Below are positions 15,001-21,000 of a stretch of 22,556 nucleotides of DNA, piece by piece. Position 1 is the first letter of the stretch; every line of letters begins with the position of its first letter. The stretch lies in the IMG/VR virus record IMGVR_UViG_2703718816_000011; one strand, written 5' to 3'. A program made the position numbers. This DNA is from a virus. Its lineage: Duplodnaviria > Heunggongvirae > Uroviricota > Caudoviricetes.

Positions 15001-18000
15001 TGAAAATGAAGTAATAGAAATAAACAGCAATATCAGCGACAGTTGCGTCGCTTACAGCCACCAAATAATTCGTGTAAGCGCAAGAATAATGGAAGTGATG
15101 GCAAGTGAGCTTGAAAAGAACAACATCAAGCCCACTGATTGTTGTTTAAGAACCGTAATGAACGTTATTTATTACTCGATGTTCCGAAGTCGCTAACAGC
15201 ATCGAGTTTTTCATCAAAAAATGATTCAAATGCATCGTAAAATACGGCAATAGCACCGCCCTTATCTACCGCGGCAGGAACTGCCTTTTGAGGTATATCT
15301 TTCTCCCTGAATTGTGTGTTGTAGGTATCGACAGCCAGCCGCATCAGAAACATCACTTTTTCTTCTTGTGTCATAAATTCACTCTCCTTACGGGGTTTGT
15401 AGTTGAGGAGTTCTCCACGGGTCAGGTGGAGTTCGTGCGCCGGACACGGGTGAGCATCCGGCACTGTCAGTTTACTGAACAGATATTACCCTGAAAAGCC
15501 AGGGTGCAACACGAAAGCGCACGGCGAAGACTCTTTCCCTTTGAAGGCTTGTCGTTAGATTTCTTCGACCGTGCGCTTCCGGTTGTGAATAACAACATTG
15601 CTGTGTGTAGTCATTGGCGGATATCAGTTTAATTGCTGGCTGATATCCGCCCTTTTTTAAAGTGAATTTTGTGATGCGGTGAATGCGGCTCAGCGCACGC
15701 GGAACAGTTAAACCGACAGGATGTCACGGAAAGTCATCGTCCCCTGACCCGGCGTTAATTGTTAACTGGTTAACGTCACCTGGAGGCACCAGGCACCGCA
15801 TCAACAAAGTTCATTTGTGAAAATGGAGATAATTATGATTGCTCATCACTTCAGAACTGATGAAATACCACGTCAGTGCGTGACACCTGGCGATTATGTT
15901 CTTCATGAAGGGCGGACATATATCGCTTCAGCAAACAATATTGAAAAGAGAAAACTCTATATTCGTAACTTCACGACAAAAACATGCATTACCGATTGCA
16001 TGATTAAAGTCTTCCTCGGACGTGATGGTTTACCTGTAAAAGCGGAGTCATGGTGATAAATGTAAAAATAAAATGTGCCTACCATCTCTGCAATAAGGAA
16101 ACCGAACAAACCAAATCCGTTAAAAGTCATCTTCATTTTATGAAAGGCACAATCCCCGTAACCGAAGAGCGGCAATATTGCAGTAAGCAATGCGCCGAAA
16201 ATGACCAGATGGCACATGAACTCTAACCCCTCAACTTGATATTCAGACAATTCAGTTTCATGCCAGATATAACAGCACCATAGGCCTTAAAAAAAGGACA
16301 TATAAAGTGAAAGAACTTAATCCTGACCAAATCTTTTCTGAAACCGAAAAGACAGCAGTAAATGAACTTAATGAAATTGCAAACCGCATCAGTAAAATAT
16401 GCAAAGAATACAAAATCGACTTTGTATTTTCTTTTTCAGTGCTTACAGAAGTTGGAAATAACGAATATAAAGACAGTCGTTTGGTTTCATGTGGGTTAAA
16501 TGGCAAAACACCAAGCCCATATATTCATGCCGCATGTGAAGTCGTCAGAAGCAACATTGAAGCACAACAAATCCATGAACTGGCGCTGGCTCTTGAGTTT
16601 GCAAGAGAAAATCCTGAGTGCGACTGCCCCGAATGCCAGCACGAAAAGGAAAAAACAACTAACAAAACAGCAAACCAGGCAACCTTCCACTGAAATAAAA
16701 ATCCGGCAGCGCAGGCTACCGGATTTCTCCCTGCGTCACCGTATTCGGAGAAATCAGACAAAGGGCCGCTAATTCTAATCCAGCCAGAGGTTTAAATACA
16801 ATGAGTGCTGATAAACAGACTTTTGCACTACACTGCGAAGCAAAAAACGATAAAGTCAGAAAACGCCTTGACATCAAAGGCGGTTTTTTCTGGACCGAGG
16901 CCAGAAAACTTTCTGTCGCAGTTTCCCGCTGCATTGCAGCCATGGACGATGCAGGCTACGACGAGGATGATTTCAAAAAACCCGTTCGCGTAAATTTCCC
17001 CGTCGTGAATGACCTTCCACCGGAAGGCGTGTTTGATACTGAATTCTGCAACCGCTATGAAAAAGGCGGTAACGATGGCATCACCATGATGGCTATCCCC
17101 TTCGATGACAACATCAACGGTGAAGATGCCACAACTGCTGGCGATGACAACGATAACCTGGACGGAACTATTCCGGATGATGTGGAGAAAAGCGAATCCC
17201 CGGACAGCGACGATGACTGTTCTGAGTGTGAAATTCCCGTCGCCACTCTGAGCCTTACTCATCGCTTCCTTCACCTCTTCTTATTCAGCAAAGATGAAGA
17301 TGGAAAATACCGGCATCATGCCACACCAGAACAACGCAATAACGTGATCCGTATGGAGATGGACACAGAGGACAGTTACCTTCAGAGCCTGCTTACTGCT
17401 GTGCGCGCCGCGCATCATGAACTGGATAAACTGACGAACCATCACCTTAGTCGCCTAGCTGAATCTGTAGGGAAAGCATTCCCCCACTCTGCAAATCATC
17501 GCATCAGCCCGGCTGAATTCGACAAGTTCATCTCCACCTGGATGAAAACAGACTATGTGGATCAGGGATTGCTGGCAAAAGAATGGCAGAAAGGAAATTA
17601 TGTTACAGGCATCACTCGTACGCCTTCCGGTGCTAACGCTGGCGGCGGAAATCTTACCGATCGTGGCGAAGGCTTTACCCACAATCAGGCATCACTGGCG
17701 CGAGACATTGCCACTGGCGTTCTGGCCCGTTCAATGGATGTGGATATTTATAACCTGCACCCAGCACACGCAAAACGCGTTGAAGAAATCGTGTCAGAGA
17801 ATAAGCCGCCCTTTTCTGTTTTCCGTGACAAATTCATCGCCATGCCCGGTGGGCTGGATTATTCCCGCGCCATTGTGGTGGCTTCAGTGAAAGAAGCACC
17901 AATCGGCATTGAGGCTATCCCGGCGCGCGTGACTGAATATCTCAACAAAGTGTTGACCGAAACCGATCACTCTAACCCGGATCCGGAAATCGTGGAAATC

Positions 18001-21000
18001 GCCTGCGGTCGCTCATCAGCCCCAATGCCGCAGCGCGGAACAGCAGAAGAGATACATGACGATGAAGAAAAGCAGCAAACATCGGACGCAATGTCTAATG
18101 AACAGGCAGCGCCTGAATCAGTGGAAGAAATTCCAGTTAAACATAATGCGGACACGCAATCACTGGAAAATGTCTCATCTGTAGAAACGAAATACCAGGA
18201 ACTGAGAGCAGAACTCCATGAAGCCAGGAAAAACATTTCGCCCAAAAATCCTGTCGATGCAGACAAATTGCTGGCTGCCTCTCGTGGGGAGTTCGTTGAA
18301 GGCATCAGCGCCCCAACCGACCCGAAGTGGATTAAGGGGATCCAGGCTCGCGACACTGAGGACCAGAATCAGTCCAAAGTGGAACAAATTGCCCCAGAAG
18401 CGGGACAAAACAGCCCGGATACGCAACAAAACGGGCCAGAAGAGCAACAGCCAGCCCCAGTAGCGCAACCGGAGCTGGAAAAAAACTGCCGCGTCTGTGG
18501 TCAGACTGGCGGGGGTAACTGCCCTGACTGTAGTGCGGTAATGGGCGATAGCACTTACACAGAAACTTTTGGAGAAAATGACGCCGCTGATGGAGAAGAC
18601 TCAGCACAAACTGAGGAGAAGATCATTCAGGAAAACTCTGTTGATGCCGCTCAGGAGGGCGAAACCGTTGTTCAGAACGAGCCAGGCAGTGATACGTCCG
18701 GCGATGACGCCAATTCTGAGCCAGTAACTCTCGACTGGAAAAGACAGCTCGTGATTGCCGCCGTCTATGGTTTGTGCGCCAACCCCGCATGTATAGCCAC
18801 AGCGCCAGCAATCCCTGATATCGCCATCATGATTGCCAACAGGCTTGAAAATTTCGGAGGTGATAAATCATGAATGCCTGGCTTATCCCCGATCGCATTG
18901 AAGAGCAGTCATGGGCACGACACTACCAGCAAATTGCCCGTGAAGAAACTGAAGCTGAGCTGGCAGACGACCTGGAAAAAGGTCTGCCCCAACACCTGTT
19001 TGAATCGCTATGCATCGATAATCTGCAACGTCACGGGGCCAGCAAAAAAGCTATTTCCCGTGCATTTGATGACGATGTCGATTTTCAGGAACGCATGGCA
19101 GAACACATCCGCTACATGGCTGAAACCATCGCCCGTCACCAAATTAATATTGATTCAGAGGTATAAAACGGATGAGTACAGCACTCGCAACGCTGGCAGG
19201 GAAGCTGGCTGAACGTGTCGGCATGGATTCTGTCGACCCACAGGAACTAATCACCACTCTTCGCCAGACGGCATTTAAAGGTGATGCCAGCGATGCGCAA
19301 TTTATCGCATTGTTGATCGTCGCCAACCAGTACGGCCTTAATCCCTGGACGAAAGAAATTTACGCCTTCCCTGACAAGCAGAACGGCATCGTTCCGGTGG
19401 TTGGCGTTGATGGCTGGTCCCGCATTATCAATGAAAACCAGCAGTTTGATGGCATGGACTTTGAGCAGGACAATGAGTCCTGTACATGCCGGATTTACCG
19501 CAAAGATCGCAATCACCCGATCTGCGTTACCGAGTGGATGGATGAATGTCGCCGCGCACCATTCAAAACCCGCGAAGGCAGAGAAATCACCGGACCGTGG
19601 CAGTCGCATCCCAAACGGATGTTACGGCACAAAGCCATGATTCAGTGTGCTCGCCTGGCCTTCGGATTTGCTGGCATCTATGACAAGGATGAAGCCGAGC
19701 GTATTGTCGAAAATACCGCATATACTACAGAACGTCAGCCGGAACGCGACATCACCCCGGTTAACGAAGAAACCATGTCGGAAATTAACGCCCTTCTTAC
19801 TTCCATGGAAAAAACGTGGGATGACGACCTGTTGCCGCTCTGTTCCCAGATTTTTCGCCGCAACATTCGAGCGTCGTCAGAACTGTCCCAAGCCGAAGCA
19901 GAGAAGGCTCTTGGATTCCTTAAACAGAAAGCCACAGAGCATAAGGTGGCAGCATGACACCAGAAATTATCCTACAACGTACCGGGATCGACGTGAGAGG
20001 TGTCGAGCAGGGAGATTATGCATGGCAAAAATTACGGCTCGGGGTCATCACAGCTTCAGAAGTTCACAACGTGATAGCAAAACCCCGCTCCGGAAAGAAA
20101 TGGCCTGACATGAAAATGTCCTACTTCCACACTCTGCTGGCTGAGGTCTGCACGGGTGTGGCCCCGGAAGTTAACGCCAAAGCCCTGGCATGGGGAAAAC
20201 AGTACGAGAACGACGCCAGATCCCTGTTTGAGTTTACTTCCGGCGTGAATATTACTGAATCCCCGATCATCTATCGCGACGAAAGTATGCGTACCGCCTG
20301 CTCTCCGGATGGATTATGTAGTGACGGCAACGGCCTTGAGCTGAAATGTCCGTTTACCTCCCGGGATTTCATGAAATTCCGGCTCGGTGGTTTCGAGGCC
20401 ATAAAATCAGCTTACATGGCCCAGGTGCAATTCAGCATGTGGGTGACTCGAAAAGATGCCTGGTACTTCGCCAACTATGACCCGCGCATGAAGCGTGAAG
20501 GCCTGCATTATGTCGTGGTCGAGCGGGATGAAAAATACATGGCTGGTTTTGACGAGATGGTGCCGGAATTCATCGAAAAAATGGACGAAGCACTGGCTGA
20601 AATTAGTTTTGTATTTGGGGAGCAATGGCGATAGCCAGTAACAATGAGGTTCTCATATATGAATATTTCATTTGAAAGTCATGGTTCGGCAGCAAGTGTT
20701 GTTATCACCAGTTCGCTATTCGAATGCCGAAAGCACCAGCATATCGTTGATGCACTGAAGTTCAAAGTACCGGAAATGACCGTCACAACCCGGGGATGTT
20801 TCTGGATACGGACGACGTTAGCCACAACATACCTCACGGCACGCCGTGTTTATGATATGGCACACCAGGAATATAACCAGTGTTCGTCCTGATCCAGCGC
20901 GGGCAGTCTTTCGTCGATGCCAACAACTATCCGGTGGAAATCTGCAAGGTAACTCTTACTCAGGTGATCTACCGAAGACTCGACGGCAGAACCCGAGCCA

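What the first reader, a model, noticed from the sequence alone, without database searches (positions are those of the whole stretch)
16801..18873. 690-aa acidic protein with zinc ribbon replaces kil/cIII upstream of lambda-identical gam-bet-exo
The recombination genes gam, bet and exo are almost residue-identical to lambda as I recall them, but the sequence directly upstream is one long ORF unlike any lambda early-left gene. It has long Asp/Glu-rich stretches, a Cys4 motif and a hydrophobic C-terminus, and it overlaps the gam start. Early-left operons are where phages keep host-takeover and anti-defence functions, and acidic low-complexity regions are typical of DNA-mimic inhibitors. That role is speculation; the mosaic junction itself is directly visible.
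Basis: partly seen in the sequence, partly recalled or inferred. Interest (0 to 1): 0.7.

Follow-up and report, generated by a model that had tools for sequence, protein, structure and literature searches.

The report
Nuclease-less RecE relative beside gam
The long acidic ORF is a very common, conserved prophage protein that consists of the function-unknown N-terminal two-thirds of the RecE recombination exonuclease, with the nuclease domain replaced by a short conserved helical tail; databases mislabel it 'exonuclease VIII' and its real job is still unknown.

Summary
The ORF is real (16801-18873, 690 aa, pI 4.6, Cys4 at 563/566/574/577, ATGA overlap with gam). The window is Stx1c phage phiSTEC1589 (100% identity). 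The ORF is not an orphan. Residues 1-592 are homologous to the N-terminal region of Rac RecE, whose function is unknown. The PD-(D/E)XK nuclease domain is absent. In its place are an acidic linker and a 45-aa tail (LxxAAxxGLCANP...IPxxA). Upstream genes are Rac-like (kilR, ydaE), so kil function is not missing; similarity to lambda starts only at gam. The gene is not a decaying remnant: the exact protein occurs on at least 1000 contigs, whole-gene dN/dS is 0.31-0.37 and the tail's is 0.07-0.15. The tail ends about 21 of 83 long family representatives, including Citrobacter, Buttiauxella, Lelliottia and Cedecea prophages that have no gam, bet or exo. The same N-terminal region is elsewhere fused to a PD-(D/E)XK or a DnaQ-like exonuclease. 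An AlphaFold2 model (mean pLDDT 67) has no relative among solved structures or predicted viral structures. I read it as a nuclease-independent accessory of DNA-end metabolism; this is inferred, not shown. Nothing supports a DNA-mimic or anti-defence role. One 2025 paper mentions nuclease-less 'RecE-2' proteins in a sentence. Interest is moderate to low.

The parts
16801..18873 (+). CDS of the 690-aa nuclease-less RecE-family protein. Public records annotate it 'exodeoxyribonuclease VIII' or 'RecE family exodeoxyribonuclease'.
   Evidence: ORF listing; 100% match to PQ600364.1 gene 07; PF06630 and PHROG 607 match the N-terminal parts only.
16801..17100 (+). N-terminal alpha/beta domain (aa 1-100), with the conserved motif DLPxEGxxDxxFCxRY.
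   Evidence: AF2 pLDDT about 85. It is shared with Rac RecE, the DnaQ-like fusions and the divergent tail-bearing relatives.
17107..17220 (+). Acidic disordered linker 1 (aa 103-140).
   Evidence: pLDDT below 50; net charge about -18 over aa 91-150; variable among relatives.
17221..18036 (+). Conserved helical core of the RecE N-terminal region (aa 141-412). Residues conserved family-wide include T286-D287-R288, D313-x-D315-I-Y317, P349-G350-x-L-D353-x-S355-R356-A357 and E387.
   Evidence: AF2 pLDDT 80-95; dN/dS 0.18; residues conserved in at least 75% of 69 representatives that share at most 50% identity; nearly identical in K-12 RecE.
18043..18168 (+). Acidic disordered linker 2 (aa 415-456).
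   Evidence: pLDDT below 50; composition.
18169..18345 (+). Helical segment (aa 457-515) carrying the motif [16 protein letters not shown].
   Evidence: pLDDT 62-79. The motif recurs in divergent relatives.
18481..18576 (+). Cys4 zinc-ribbon-like motif [15 protein letters not shown] plus [12 protein letters not shown] (aa 561-592). This is the last segment homologous to RecE.
   Evidence: C563/C566/C574/C577 are invariant against K-12 RecE and the PEC240 RecE-like protein. The segment is deleted in P0117 and absent from divergent relatives.
18577..18729 (+). Acidic disordered linker 3 (aa 593-643). This is the place where the different C-terminal modules are joined in the family.
   Evidence: Alignments; dN/dS 0.53-0.60 or saturated; pLDDT below 50.
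18730..18870 (+). Conserved C-terminal two-helix tail (aa 644-690): [46 protein letters not shown]. The family motif is LTYxQQLTIAALQGLCANPA-x5/6-DDIPxMAxxLA.
   Evidence: dN/dS 0.07-0.15 at dS 0.4-1.6. It sits at the extreme C-terminus of 21 divergent representatives and of prophage proteins in four other genera. There is no Pfam family for it. Helices are predicted at 646-660 and 671-685.
18856..18862 (+). Shine-Dalgarno GGAGGTG of gam, inside the last codons of the ORF. The ORF stop and the gam start overlap as ATGA (18870-18873).
   Evidence: Sequence. The same 4-nt overlap occurs in L004, and a 23-nt overlap in L007.
18870..19166 (+). gam (98 aa), 83.7% identical to lambda Gam.
   Evidence: PF06064 in homologous loci.
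19172..19957 (+). bet (261 aa), 94.6% identical to lambda Bet.
19954..20634 (+). exo (226 aa), 94.7% identical to lambda Exo.
15817..16056 (+). kilR homologue (Rac-type FtsZ inhibitor), 93% identical to K-12 KilR over 15835-16053.
   Evidence: tblastn; PF27398 in homologous loci.
16050..16226 (+). ydaE homologue (58-aa zinc-binding protein). A YdaE-like gene is the most frequent upstream neighbour of tail-bearing relatives.
   Evidence: neighbourhood survey.
16307..16693 (+). 128-aa ORF in the position of Rac racC. No sequence similarity to RacC was detected.
   Evidence: It is conserved in related prophages.

Best explanation
SHOWN. The ORF is a stand-alone, nuclease-less member of the RecE family. 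It keeps the N-terminal alpha/beta domain, the conserved helical core, the RGEF..DPKW segment and the zinc ribbon of Rac RecE (aa 1-592). It lacks the C-terminal PD-(D/E)XK exonuclease domain. Instead it ends in an acidic linker plus a 45-aa two-helix 'LCANP' tail. It sits at the end of a Rac-like block of the early-left operon (kilR, ydaE, a 128-aa ORF, then this gene). In this phage lineage that block is joined to a lambda-like gam-bet-exo module, with the stop overlapping the gam start. The architecture is old, widespread and under purifying selection, so the protein is functional and is not exonuclease VIII.

INFERRED. The same N-terminal region is joined, at the same acidic linker, to a 5'-3' PD-(D/E)XK exonuclease, to a 3'-5' DnaQ-like exonuclease, or to the tail. 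It therefore most likely works in the same process as those nucleases: handling of double-strand DNA ends during phage replication and recombination. It would act as a binding or scaffolding module rather than a catalyst. This would be the activity that makes full-length RecE better than its bare nuclease domain at linear-linear recombination. The tail is proposed to be the output module, either an oligomerisation element or a docking element for a partner supplied in trans. That partner is probably a host protein, because many tail-bearing relatives have no phage recombinase next to them. The acidic stretches are flexible linkers.

My confidence in the identity and architecture is about 0.95. 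My confidence in the mechanistic part is about 0.3.
For: Identity:
- PF06630 matches aa 55-197.
- PHROG 607 matches at E=9e-257 but uses only profile positions 1-618 of 883.
- The NCBIfam exonuclease VIII equivalog NF007259 matches profile positions 1-598 of 877 at 735 bits, against a cut-off of 1269.
- The alignment with K-12 RecE and a 1049-aa RecE-like protein is colinear up to ...[12 protein letters not shown] and then diverges; nothing aligns to the nuclease domain.
- There is no sequence match in the PDB, which holds only the RecE nuclease domain.

Rac-like context.

Functional, not a remnant:
- More than 100 clusters at 90% identity have lengths of 680-700 aa, and the exact sequence is on at least 1000 contigs.
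- dN/dS is 0.31-0.37 overall, 0.18 in the core and 0.07-0.15 in the tail.
- The gene lies in an inducible phage that lysogenises MG1655 (PMC12029490).

Modularity:
- Among 83 representatives of at least 450 aa, 21 end in the tail, 20 in PD-(D/E)XK and 14 in a DnaQ-like domain.
- Pfam confirms DUF3799 and Rv2179c-like domains in examples.
- The ORF is 61% identical over aa 1-590 to an O157 DnaQ-like fusion.
- Nucleotides 1-1586 are 91.9% identical to a canonical recE-recT prophage.

Tail as a family feature.

Neighbourhoods: the ORF is followed by gam-bet-exo, by gam plus a Sak4-like AAA_24 protein, or by no recombination genes at all.

[quoted passage not shown] Nuclease-less 'RecE-2' proteins have been noted, with roles unknown (PMC12315714).
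Against: No direct evidence links the N-terminal region or the tail to DNA or to any partner. The AF2 model found no structural relative, so the fold gives no functional hint. Two of the three architecture classes (the DnaQ-like fusions and the divergent tail forms) occur without any annealase, so the family is not tied to annealase-dependent (RecET/Red-type) recombination. The conserved cluster of polar and acidic residues in the core could equally be a catalytic site of an unknown enzyme. The fusion argument shows a functional link to nucleases but not what the link is. My first idea, that the tail docks onto Exo, Bet or Gam, is contradicted by tail-bearing relatives that lack all three.
Confidence: 0.6

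Rival explanations
1. Anti-defence or host-takeover protein. The acidic regions would mimic DNA, or the protein would otherwise block a host nuclease or defence system, working alongside Gam.
For: The gene lies in the early-left operon and is translationally coupled to the RecBCD inhibitor gam. In E. coli lineages the tail-bearing gene and gam stay together while the recombinase downstream changes between Bet/Exo and Sak4-like. The protein is strongly acidic. The function of the RecE N-terminal region is unknown. Many relatives occur without recombinases.
Against: The acidic segments are the least conserved and are predicted to be disordered, unlike the rigid acidic surfaces of known DNA mimics. 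There is no hit to PADLOC or to any anti-restriction Pfam family. The same region is fused to exonucleases in paralogues. Divergent tail-bearing relatives have no gam.
Confidence: 0.15
2. The conserved core (aa 141-412) is itself an uncharacterised enzyme. The cluster D287/R288, D313/D315/Y317, D353/S355/R356 and E387 would be its active site. The variable C-terminal modules would only modulate or complement that activity.
For: Polar and acidic residues are conserved family-wide in a confidently folded domain. The core is the most conserved part of all three architecture classes.
Against: There is no structural or sequence similarity to any known enzyme. RecE fragments lacking this region retain full exonuclease and recombination function (literature cited in PMC11611040), so the region has no known catalytic contribution.
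Confidence: 0.12
3. Inert remnant: a recE gene truncated when gam-bet-exo replaced the nuclease domain and recT, kept open by chance or only as a spacer and ribosome-delivery sequence for gam.
For: The mosaic joint lies at the 3' end of the gene. The gam Shine-Dalgarno is embedded in the gene. Prophage early regions often carry decaying genes.
Against: dN/dS is 0.31-0.37 overall and 0.07-0.15 in the tail, with substantial synonymous divergence. Length is conserved over hundreds of variants. The tail is a conserved motif in relatives that share only 22-31% identity and have no gam downstream.
Confidence: 0.03
4. Tail-anchored inner-membrane protein: the hydrophobic C-terminus is a transmembrane anchor.
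For: The Kyte-Doolittle 19-residue mean is 1.75 at aa 650-668 and the stretch is flanked by charged residues.
Against: Only the E. coli ~690-aa group reaches the 1.6 threshold. Divergent relatives score 0.5-1.3 and have Gln and Asp-Asp inside the motif. The model shows two short helices joined by a Pro-containing turn.
Confidence: 0.05
5. The database annotation is right: the protein is an active exodeoxyribonuclease VIII.
For: Names in GenBank and RefSeq.
Against: There is no PD-(D/E)XK/DUF3799 domain, although K-12 RecE and the PEC240 protein score for it in the same scan. The protein is below the NCBIfam equivalog cut-off. Only 98 residues follow the last RecE-homologous segment, and half of them are disordered.
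Confidence: 0.02

Closest known systems
RecE (exonuclease VIII) of the Rac prophage, E. coli K-12, 866 aa
   Same: The ORF is homologous and colinear with RecE over its aa 1-592 (53% identity overall, nearly identical over about aa 265-412), including the PF06630 domain and the Cys4 ribbon. It occupies the same operon position after kilR and ydaE.
   Different: It lacks the C-terminal PD-(D/E)XK nuclease domain, which is the only part of RecE with a known activity and a solved structure. It has a conserved 45-aa tail instead. It is followed by gam-bet-exo rather than recT. It falls below the NCBIfam equivalog cut-off.
'RecE-2' proteins of lambdoid phages (Genome Res 2025, PMC12315714)
   Same: [quoted passage not shown] That is the same kind of object.
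   Different: The paper gives one sentence and no analysis, and its supplementary tables were not available. I therefore cannot confirm that this protein is in their set. The conserved tail, the selection analysis and the three-way modularity are not described there.
RecE-N/DnaQ-like exonuclease fusions of E. coli O157:H7 DicB-type prophages (e.g. WP_000102181.1, 814 aa)
   Same: 61% identical over aa 1-590, ending at the same ...ATYQETF boundary followed by an acidic linker.
   Different: Their C-terminus is an Rv2179c-like/RNase T-type 3'-5' exonuclease domain. The gene lies after dicB and directly before xis-int, with no gam and no annealase.
Lambda Red module (gam, bet, exo)
   Same: The three genes directly downstream belong to it, at 84-95% protein identity.
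   Different: In lambda, gam is preceded by kil and cIII. No RecE-like gene exists in lambda.
Acidic DNA-mimic inhibitors (T7 Ocr, ArdA, lambda Gam)
   Same: Low pI and an early-gene location.
   Different: There is no sequence or family similarity. Here the acidity lies in poorly conserved segments predicted to be disordered, not on a folded DNA-shaped surface. The resemblance is only compositional.

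Membership tests
RecE / exodeoxyribonuclease VIII | N-terminal Exonuc_VIII region (PF06630) and the colinear conserved core | tested here: met
   PF06630 at E=2.3e-12, 47.6 bits against a cut-off of 25. The alignment with K-12 RecE is colinear over aa 1-592.
RecE / exodeoxyribonuclease VIII | C-terminal PD-(D/E)XK nuclease domain (PF12684/DUF3799; RecE residues about 606-866) | tested here: not met
   There is no PF12684 hit, whereas K-12 RecE (E=4e-28) and the PEC240 protein (E=5e-13) score in the same kind of scan. 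PHROG 607 uses only profile positions 1-618 of 883. There is no PDB sequence hit.
RecE / exodeoxyribonuclease VIII | Score at or above the NCBIfam equivalog NF007259 cut-off | tested here: not met
   735.4 bits against a cut-off of 1269, covering profile positions 1-598 of 877. K-12 RecE scores 1830 bits.
RecE / exodeoxyribonuclease VIII | Adjacent cognate recT annealase gene | tested here: not met
   Downstream are gam, bet and exo. There is no RecT homologue of the Rac type in the window.
RecE / exodeoxyribonuclease VIII | Mg-dependent 5'-3' dsDNA exonuclease activity | not testable with these tools
   Needs a biochemical assay.
Nuclease-less RecE-N proteins with the LCANP tail (probably the 'RecE-2' class) | RecE-N core with the family-conserved residues (TDR, DxDIY, PGxLDYSRA, E387) | tested here: met
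   All these residues are present in the ORF and are conserved in at least 75% of 69 representatives; alignment A4.
Nuclease-less RecE-N proteins with the LCANP tail (probably the 'RecE-2' class) | Motif L-x2-A-A-x2-G-[LM]-C-A-N-P ... P-x2-A within the last ~45 residues, and no nuclease domain | tested here: met
   L650, A653, A654, G657, C659, N661 and P662 are invariant in 21 sequences. The motif occurs only at C-termini in all loci examined.
Nuclease-less RecE-N proteins with the LCANP tail (probably the 'RecE-2' class) | Encoded at the distal end of a lambdoid early-left operon, near xis/int or the Rec genes | tested here: met
   Window gene order; 88 related loci.
DNA-mimic anti-restriction / anti-RecBCD proteins | Folded, conserved surface of acidic residues that imitates the DNA backbone, or homology to Ocr, ArdA or Gam | tested here: not met
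   There is no family hit. The acidic segments have pLDDT below 50 and the highest dN/dS. A shape-mimicry test on a high-confidence structure was not possible.
Tail-anchored membrane proteins | A conserved C-terminal hydrophobic helix of about 19 or more residues above the transmembrane threshold | tested here: not met
   The threshold is reached only in the E. coli subgroup (1.6-1.75). It is 0.5-1.3 in 19 divergent relatives.
Lambda Red module (neighbouring genes) | Gam (PF06064), Bet (PF03837) and Exo (PF09588) in that order | tested here: met
   Pfam families in homologous loci; 83.7%, 94.6% and 94.7% identity to the lambda proteins.

The most novel reading that the evidence does not exclude
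The roughly 600-residue RecE N-terminal region is an autonomous functional unit with its own conserved polar and acidic site and an interchangeable output module: a 5'-3' nuclease, a 3'-5' nuclease, or the 45-aa LCANP hairpin. In the tail-bearing stand-alone form the hairpin recruits a host DNA-end enzyme (for example RecBCD, SbcCD, RecJ or SSB-bound factors). The protein would then act with Gam as a previously unrecognised end-protection or counter-defence factor of lambdoid phages, including Stx phages.
Probability: 0.15. Interest if true: 0.65.

Novelty: new variant of a known kind. Interest (0 to 1): 0.35.

Why it matters
RecE/RecT is a workhorse of recombineering, yet two-thirds of RecE has had no assigned function for more than 30 years. 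Natural proteins that consist of just that region plus a short conserved tail are common and under purifying selection, and they occur in an inducible Stx phage that lysogenises MG1655. They show that the region works without the nuclease. They also offer a clean separation-of-function system for finding out what it does.

On the practical side, thousands of database entries named 'exodeoxyribonuclease VIII' lack the nuclease domain and should not be counted as phage exonucleases in surveys of recombination modules. The finding does not reveal a new class of system, and the existence of nuclease-less RecE relatives has already been mentioned in print.

Tried and rejected
1. AlphaFold2 with a shallow alignment of close relatives (A2) gave a useless model (pLDDT 35.6). 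A second run with 20 divergent tail-bearing relatives (A4) gave a usable one (pLDDT 66.8).
3. Sequence and profile searches of the PDB gave no hit.
4. A search of the 5.8-billion-protein collection with the tail alone returned only 6 fragments of the same family. A search with profile A4 returned only the same close E. coli relatives.
5. Pfam and PHROG scans of tail peptides found no Pfam family. The only matches were PHROG 607 and the unknown-function PHROG 26058, which also ends in the tail.
6. Hypothesis that the tail docks onto Exo, Bet or Gam: rejected as a general explanation, because divergent tail-bearing relatives have none of these genes.
7. Hypothesis that the tail is a transmembrane anchor: rejected, because the hydrophobicity is not conserved.
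8. Hypothesis of a pseudogene remnant: rejected on dN/dS and distribution.
9. Assembly artefact: rejected.
10. PADLOC gave no hit for the ORF or its neighbours.
11. The supplementary tables of PMC12315714, which would list the 'RecE-2' phages, were not held. Fu et al. 2012 was not held, so statements about full-length RecE rest on two reviews.
12. There are no tandem repeats in the ORF.

Full report
**1. The observation**

The window is the reverse complement of nucleotides 1-22556 of Escherichia phage phiSTEC1589-Stx1c (PQ600364.1), at 100% identity. This is an inducible short-tailed Stx1c phage integrated at dmsB/ynfG that lysogenises MG1655 (PMC12029490).

The ORF at 16801-18873 (+) is real and uninterrupted (690 aa).
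- 124 Asp+Glu against 66 Lys+Arg, net charge -58, pI 4.58.
- The acidity is concentrated in aa 91-150, 416-450 and 571-643.
- Cysteines lie at 563, 566, 574 and 577.
- The most hydrophobic 19-residue window is 650-668 (Kyte-Doolittle 1.75).

The TGA stop overlaps the gam ATG as ATGA. The gam Shine-Dalgarno GGAGGTG lies inside the last codons of the ORF.

It is not an assembly artefact. The same DNA is in a complete E. coli chromosome, and 83 of 5426 complete E. coli genomes carry at least 80% of it. The exact protein is recorded on at least 1000 contigs.

- Gam, Bet and Exo are 83.7%, 94.6% and 94.7% identical to lambda, which is not near-identical.
- Lambda kil and cIII are absent, but a Rac-type kilR (93% identical to the K-12 protein) and ydaE lie just upstream.

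**2. What it is**

Pfam finds the Exonuc_VIII domain (PF06630) at aa 55-197. PHROG 607 matches at E=9e-257 but uses only profile positions 1-618 of 883. The NCBIfam equivalog for exonuclease VIII matches profile positions 1-598 of 877. It scores 735 bits against a cut-off of 1269, whereas K-12 RecE scores 1830.

I aligned the ORF with K-12 RecE (866 aa) and with a 1049-aa RecE-like protein from strain PEC240. Homology is colinear from the N-terminus through the zinc ribbon and the sequence [12 protein letters not shown] (aa 592). After that the ORF has its own 98 residues, and nothing aligns to the nuclease domain.

In the same Pfam scans, K-12 RecE and the PEC240 protein score for the PD-(D/E)XK domain DUF3799 and the ORF does not. 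Sequence and profile searches of the PDB find nothing. That is expected, because only the RecE nuclease domain has been solved.

So the public annotation 'exodeoxyribonuclease VIII' or 'RecE family exodeoxyribonuclease' names a domain this protein does not have. The Cys4 motif is an ordinary RecE feature.

**3. Where the mosaic joint lies**

The upstream genes kilR and ydaE are Rac-type. The 128-aa ORF at 16307-16693 occupies the racC position but shows no detectable similarity to RacC.

Nucleotides 1-1586 of the ORF are 91.9% identical to the recE-like gene of PEC240. That gene has a nuclease domain and is followed by a RecT-family gene, ralR, a DUF1187 gene, xis and int.

DNA similarity to lambda and to many Stx phages begins about 40 nt inside gam and runs to the end of exo. 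A base-by-base comparison shows no similarity upstream of the gam start codon.

However, the ORF belongs to a Rac-like block and is not an insert into a lambda-like operon.

**4. A functional gene, not a remnant**

The big protein collection holds more than 100 clusters (at 90% identity) of this protein. They are 77-100% identical to it, nearly all 680-700 aa long, and all carry only PF06630.

Nei-Gojobori estimates against two relatives (83% and 80% amino-acid identity) give these dN/dS values:

| Region | dN/dS |
|---|---|
| Whole gene | 0.31-0.37 |
| Core (aa 146-415) | 0.18 |
| Acidic linker aa 593-643 | 0.53-0.60 or saturated |
| Last 47 residues | 0.07-0.15 (at dS 0.4-1.6) |

The hydrophobic C-terminus is thus the most constrained part and the acidic stretches the least. 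Gene order is conserved in relatives: kilR, sometimes ydaE, the 128-aa ORF, this gene, gam, bet, exo, two small ORFs, then int next to ynfG/dmsC.

**5. The family and its modularity**

An exhaustive HMMER search of 1.84 billion representatives at 50% identity found only 206 clusters. I then ran local phmmer with domain seeds on the 83 representatives of at least 450 aa:

| C-terminal module | Representatives |
|---|---|
| Same short tail | 21 |
| PD-(D/E)XK domain | 20 |
| DnaQ-like exonuclease | 14 |
| Not matched by those seeds | 28 |

Of 10 of the 28 unmatched representatives scanned with Pfam, one carries a RecT domain and none of the other nine shows any C-terminal domain.

An O157:H7 example of the DnaQ-like class (814 aa) is 61% identical to the ORF over aa 1-590. 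It switches to an Rv2179c-like 3'-5' exonuclease domain after the same ...ATYQETF boundary. It lies after dicB and directly before xis-int, with no annealase.

The tail has a clear motif, LTYxQQLTIAALQGLCANPA-x5/6-DDIPxMAxxLA. L650, A653, A654, G657, C659, N661 and P662 are invariant across 21 sequences that otherwise share only 22-31% identity (65% for the closest, P0127). In every locus examined the motif occurs only at the extreme C-terminus of RecE-N proteins. It has no Pfam family. PHROG 26058, of unknown function, also ends in it.

**6. Neighbourhoods**

A tail-derived pattern scan of 185,579 species genomes found tail-bearing relatives in Buttiauxella, Citrobacter, Lelliottia and Cedecea prophages. 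A scan of IMG/VR gave 80 loci. Three contexts appear:
- Group A is the present arrangement, with gam-bet-exo downstream.
- Group B has gam followed by an AAA_24 (Sak4-like) protein instead of bet-exo.
- Group C holds the divergent relatives. A YdaE-like zinc-ribbon gene is often immediately upstream (in about half of the loci). Downstream there are only small winged-helix (Rrf2-like), DUF1187 or DUF7740 genes, then xis and int.

Group C has no gam, annealase or nuclease. This rules out my first idea that the tail is a docking peptide for the Red proteins. It also shows that the protein can act without a phage recombinase.

Among sequenced phage isolates, only phiSTEC1589-Stx1c, PhiR5_2, 75/02 Stx and POCJ13 carry the tail.

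**7. Structure**

With the divergent alignment, AlphaFold2 gives a mean pLDDT of 66.8:

| Segment (aa) | Prediction |
|---|---|
| 1-100 | alpha/beta domain, pLDDT about 85 |
| 141-410 | helical core, pLDDT 80-95 |
| 457-510 | helical segment, pLDDT 62-79 |
| 646-660 and 671-685 | two tail helices, pLDDT 60-70 |
| 103-140, 415-456, 515-641 | disordered |

Across 69 representatives the core conserves a set of polar residues: T286-D287-R288, D313-x-D315-I-Y317, D353-x-S355-R356 and E387. These could form a binding or a catalytic site.

Tail hydrophobicity reaches transmembrane level only in the E. coli subgroup. I therefore read the tail as an amphipathic helical hairpin, not a membrane anchor.

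**8. How it most likely works**

What is shown: the architecture, the lack of the nuclease domain, the purifying selection, and the interchangeability of C-terminal modules at one linker.

What is inferred: the same N-terminal region is fused to two unrelated exonucleases of opposite polarity. By the usual fusion argument it should therefore work in the process those enzymes serve, namely handling of DNA ends. Reviews state that the RecE N-terminal region is of unknown function. They also state that full-length RecE is much better than the nuclease domain alone at linear-linear recombination (PMC11611040, PMC11610958).

My best reading is a non-catalytic end-binding or scaffolding module. Its tail would serve as an oligomerisation element or as a docking element for a partner supplied in trans, probably a host protein. 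I put about 0.95 on the identity and about 0.3 on this mechanism.

Rivals that remain open:
- An anti-defence role together with Gam (0.15). It is favoured by the persistent gene pair in E. coli lineages. It is disfavoured by the absence of gam in divergent relatives, by the disordered and fast-evolving acidic parts, and by the lack of any PADLOC hit.
- An unknown enzymatic activity of the core (0.12).

The remnant, membrane-anchor and true-exonuclease readings are disfavoured by the data above.

**9. Comparison with what is known, and novelty**

The closest known protein is Rac RecE. The ORF passes the test for the N-terminal region. It fails three other features tested here: the nuclease domain, the equivalog score and the recT partner. 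Exonuclease activity itself could not be tested.

A 2025 survey of lambdoid recombination modules mentions 'RecE-2' proteins that lack a nuclease domain and have unknown roles, without further analysis (PMC12315714). Its supplementary tables were not available, so I could not check whether this protein is among them.

As far as the papers I could search go, the following appear not to have been described:
- the conserved LCANP tail;
- the selection evidence;
- the three-way module exchange at one linker;
- the occurrence of the protein without any recombinase.

I classify the ORF as a new variant of a known kind. Interest is moderate to low (0.35). It does offer a natural separation-of-function handle on an old open question about RecE, in a phage that grows on K-12.

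Noticed in passing
window 14092-14805 and 14837-15196 (+): Two ORFs (237 and 119 aa) lie directly downstream of the N antiterminator. They have no Pfam or PADLOC hit but are conserved in related prophages. By position and lack of homology they are better candidates for unknown early functions than the ORF in question.
   Followed up: partly
window 15197-15816, hairpin at 15616-15651 (+): An ORF-poor gap of about 620 bp upstream of kilR contains a 14-bp GC-rich hairpin followed by a T-run, which looks like a terminator. Rac has the kilS small RNA at the equivalent place. No Rfam family matched here.
   Followed up: no
window 1065-1276 (-): There is an Rfam STnc100 sRNA match (142 bits, gathering score 47). 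It overlaps the 3' end of stx1B (1199-1468, minus strand) and the region downstream of it.
   Followed up: no
window 5729-5819, 6668-6752 and 6778-6855 (-): Rfam matches to sRNA-Xcc1, C4 antisense RNA and isrK lie next to the antirepressor and Rha genes. This looks like a P1/P7-type C4 immunity element inside the Stx phage.
   Followed up: no
L010:4001-6445 (E. coli O157:H7, NZ_CP038309.1): An 814-aa 'exonuclease' has the RecE N-terminal region (61% identical over 590 aa) fused to an Rv2179c-like/DnaQ-type 3'-5' exonuclease. It lies after dicB and before xis-int, with no annealase. The first 289 nt of this kind of gene match in about 1000 E. coli genomes.
   Followed up: partly
L064:4862-6264 (IMG/VR UViG 2690316286_000019): In a second E. 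coli lineage the tail-bearing gene and gam are followed by a 365-aa AAA_24 (Sak4-like) protein instead of bet-exo. The tail-gene/gam pair thus persists while the recombinase changes.
   Followed up: partly
protein P0130 (703 aa), representative library: This protein has a RecE N-terminal region fused directly to a RecT domain (PF03837 at aa 528-678), with no nuclease domain between them. It could be a deletion fusion or a further architecture.
   Followed up: no
window 18283-18330 (aa 495-510); alignment A4: The short motif RGEF[VI]xG[IV]SDPxDPKW recurs in divergent relatives at different distances from the core and tail. It behaves like a portable linear motif.
   Followed up: no
protein P0117 (663 aa); alignment A2 columns 564-590: One close relative has an in-frame deletion that removes the whole Cys4 ribbon but keeps the tail. 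Divergent tail-bearing relatives have a different middle domain instead of the ribbon. The ribbon therefore seems dispensable for the family's common function.
   Followed up: partly
L012-L019 and L070-L099: A small YdaE-like CxxC...CxxC protein (58-82 aa) is encoded immediately upstream of the tail-bearing gene in many divergent prophages, often overlapping its start. Rrf2-like winged-helix and DUF1187 (RcbA-like) genes commonly follow.
   Followed up: partly
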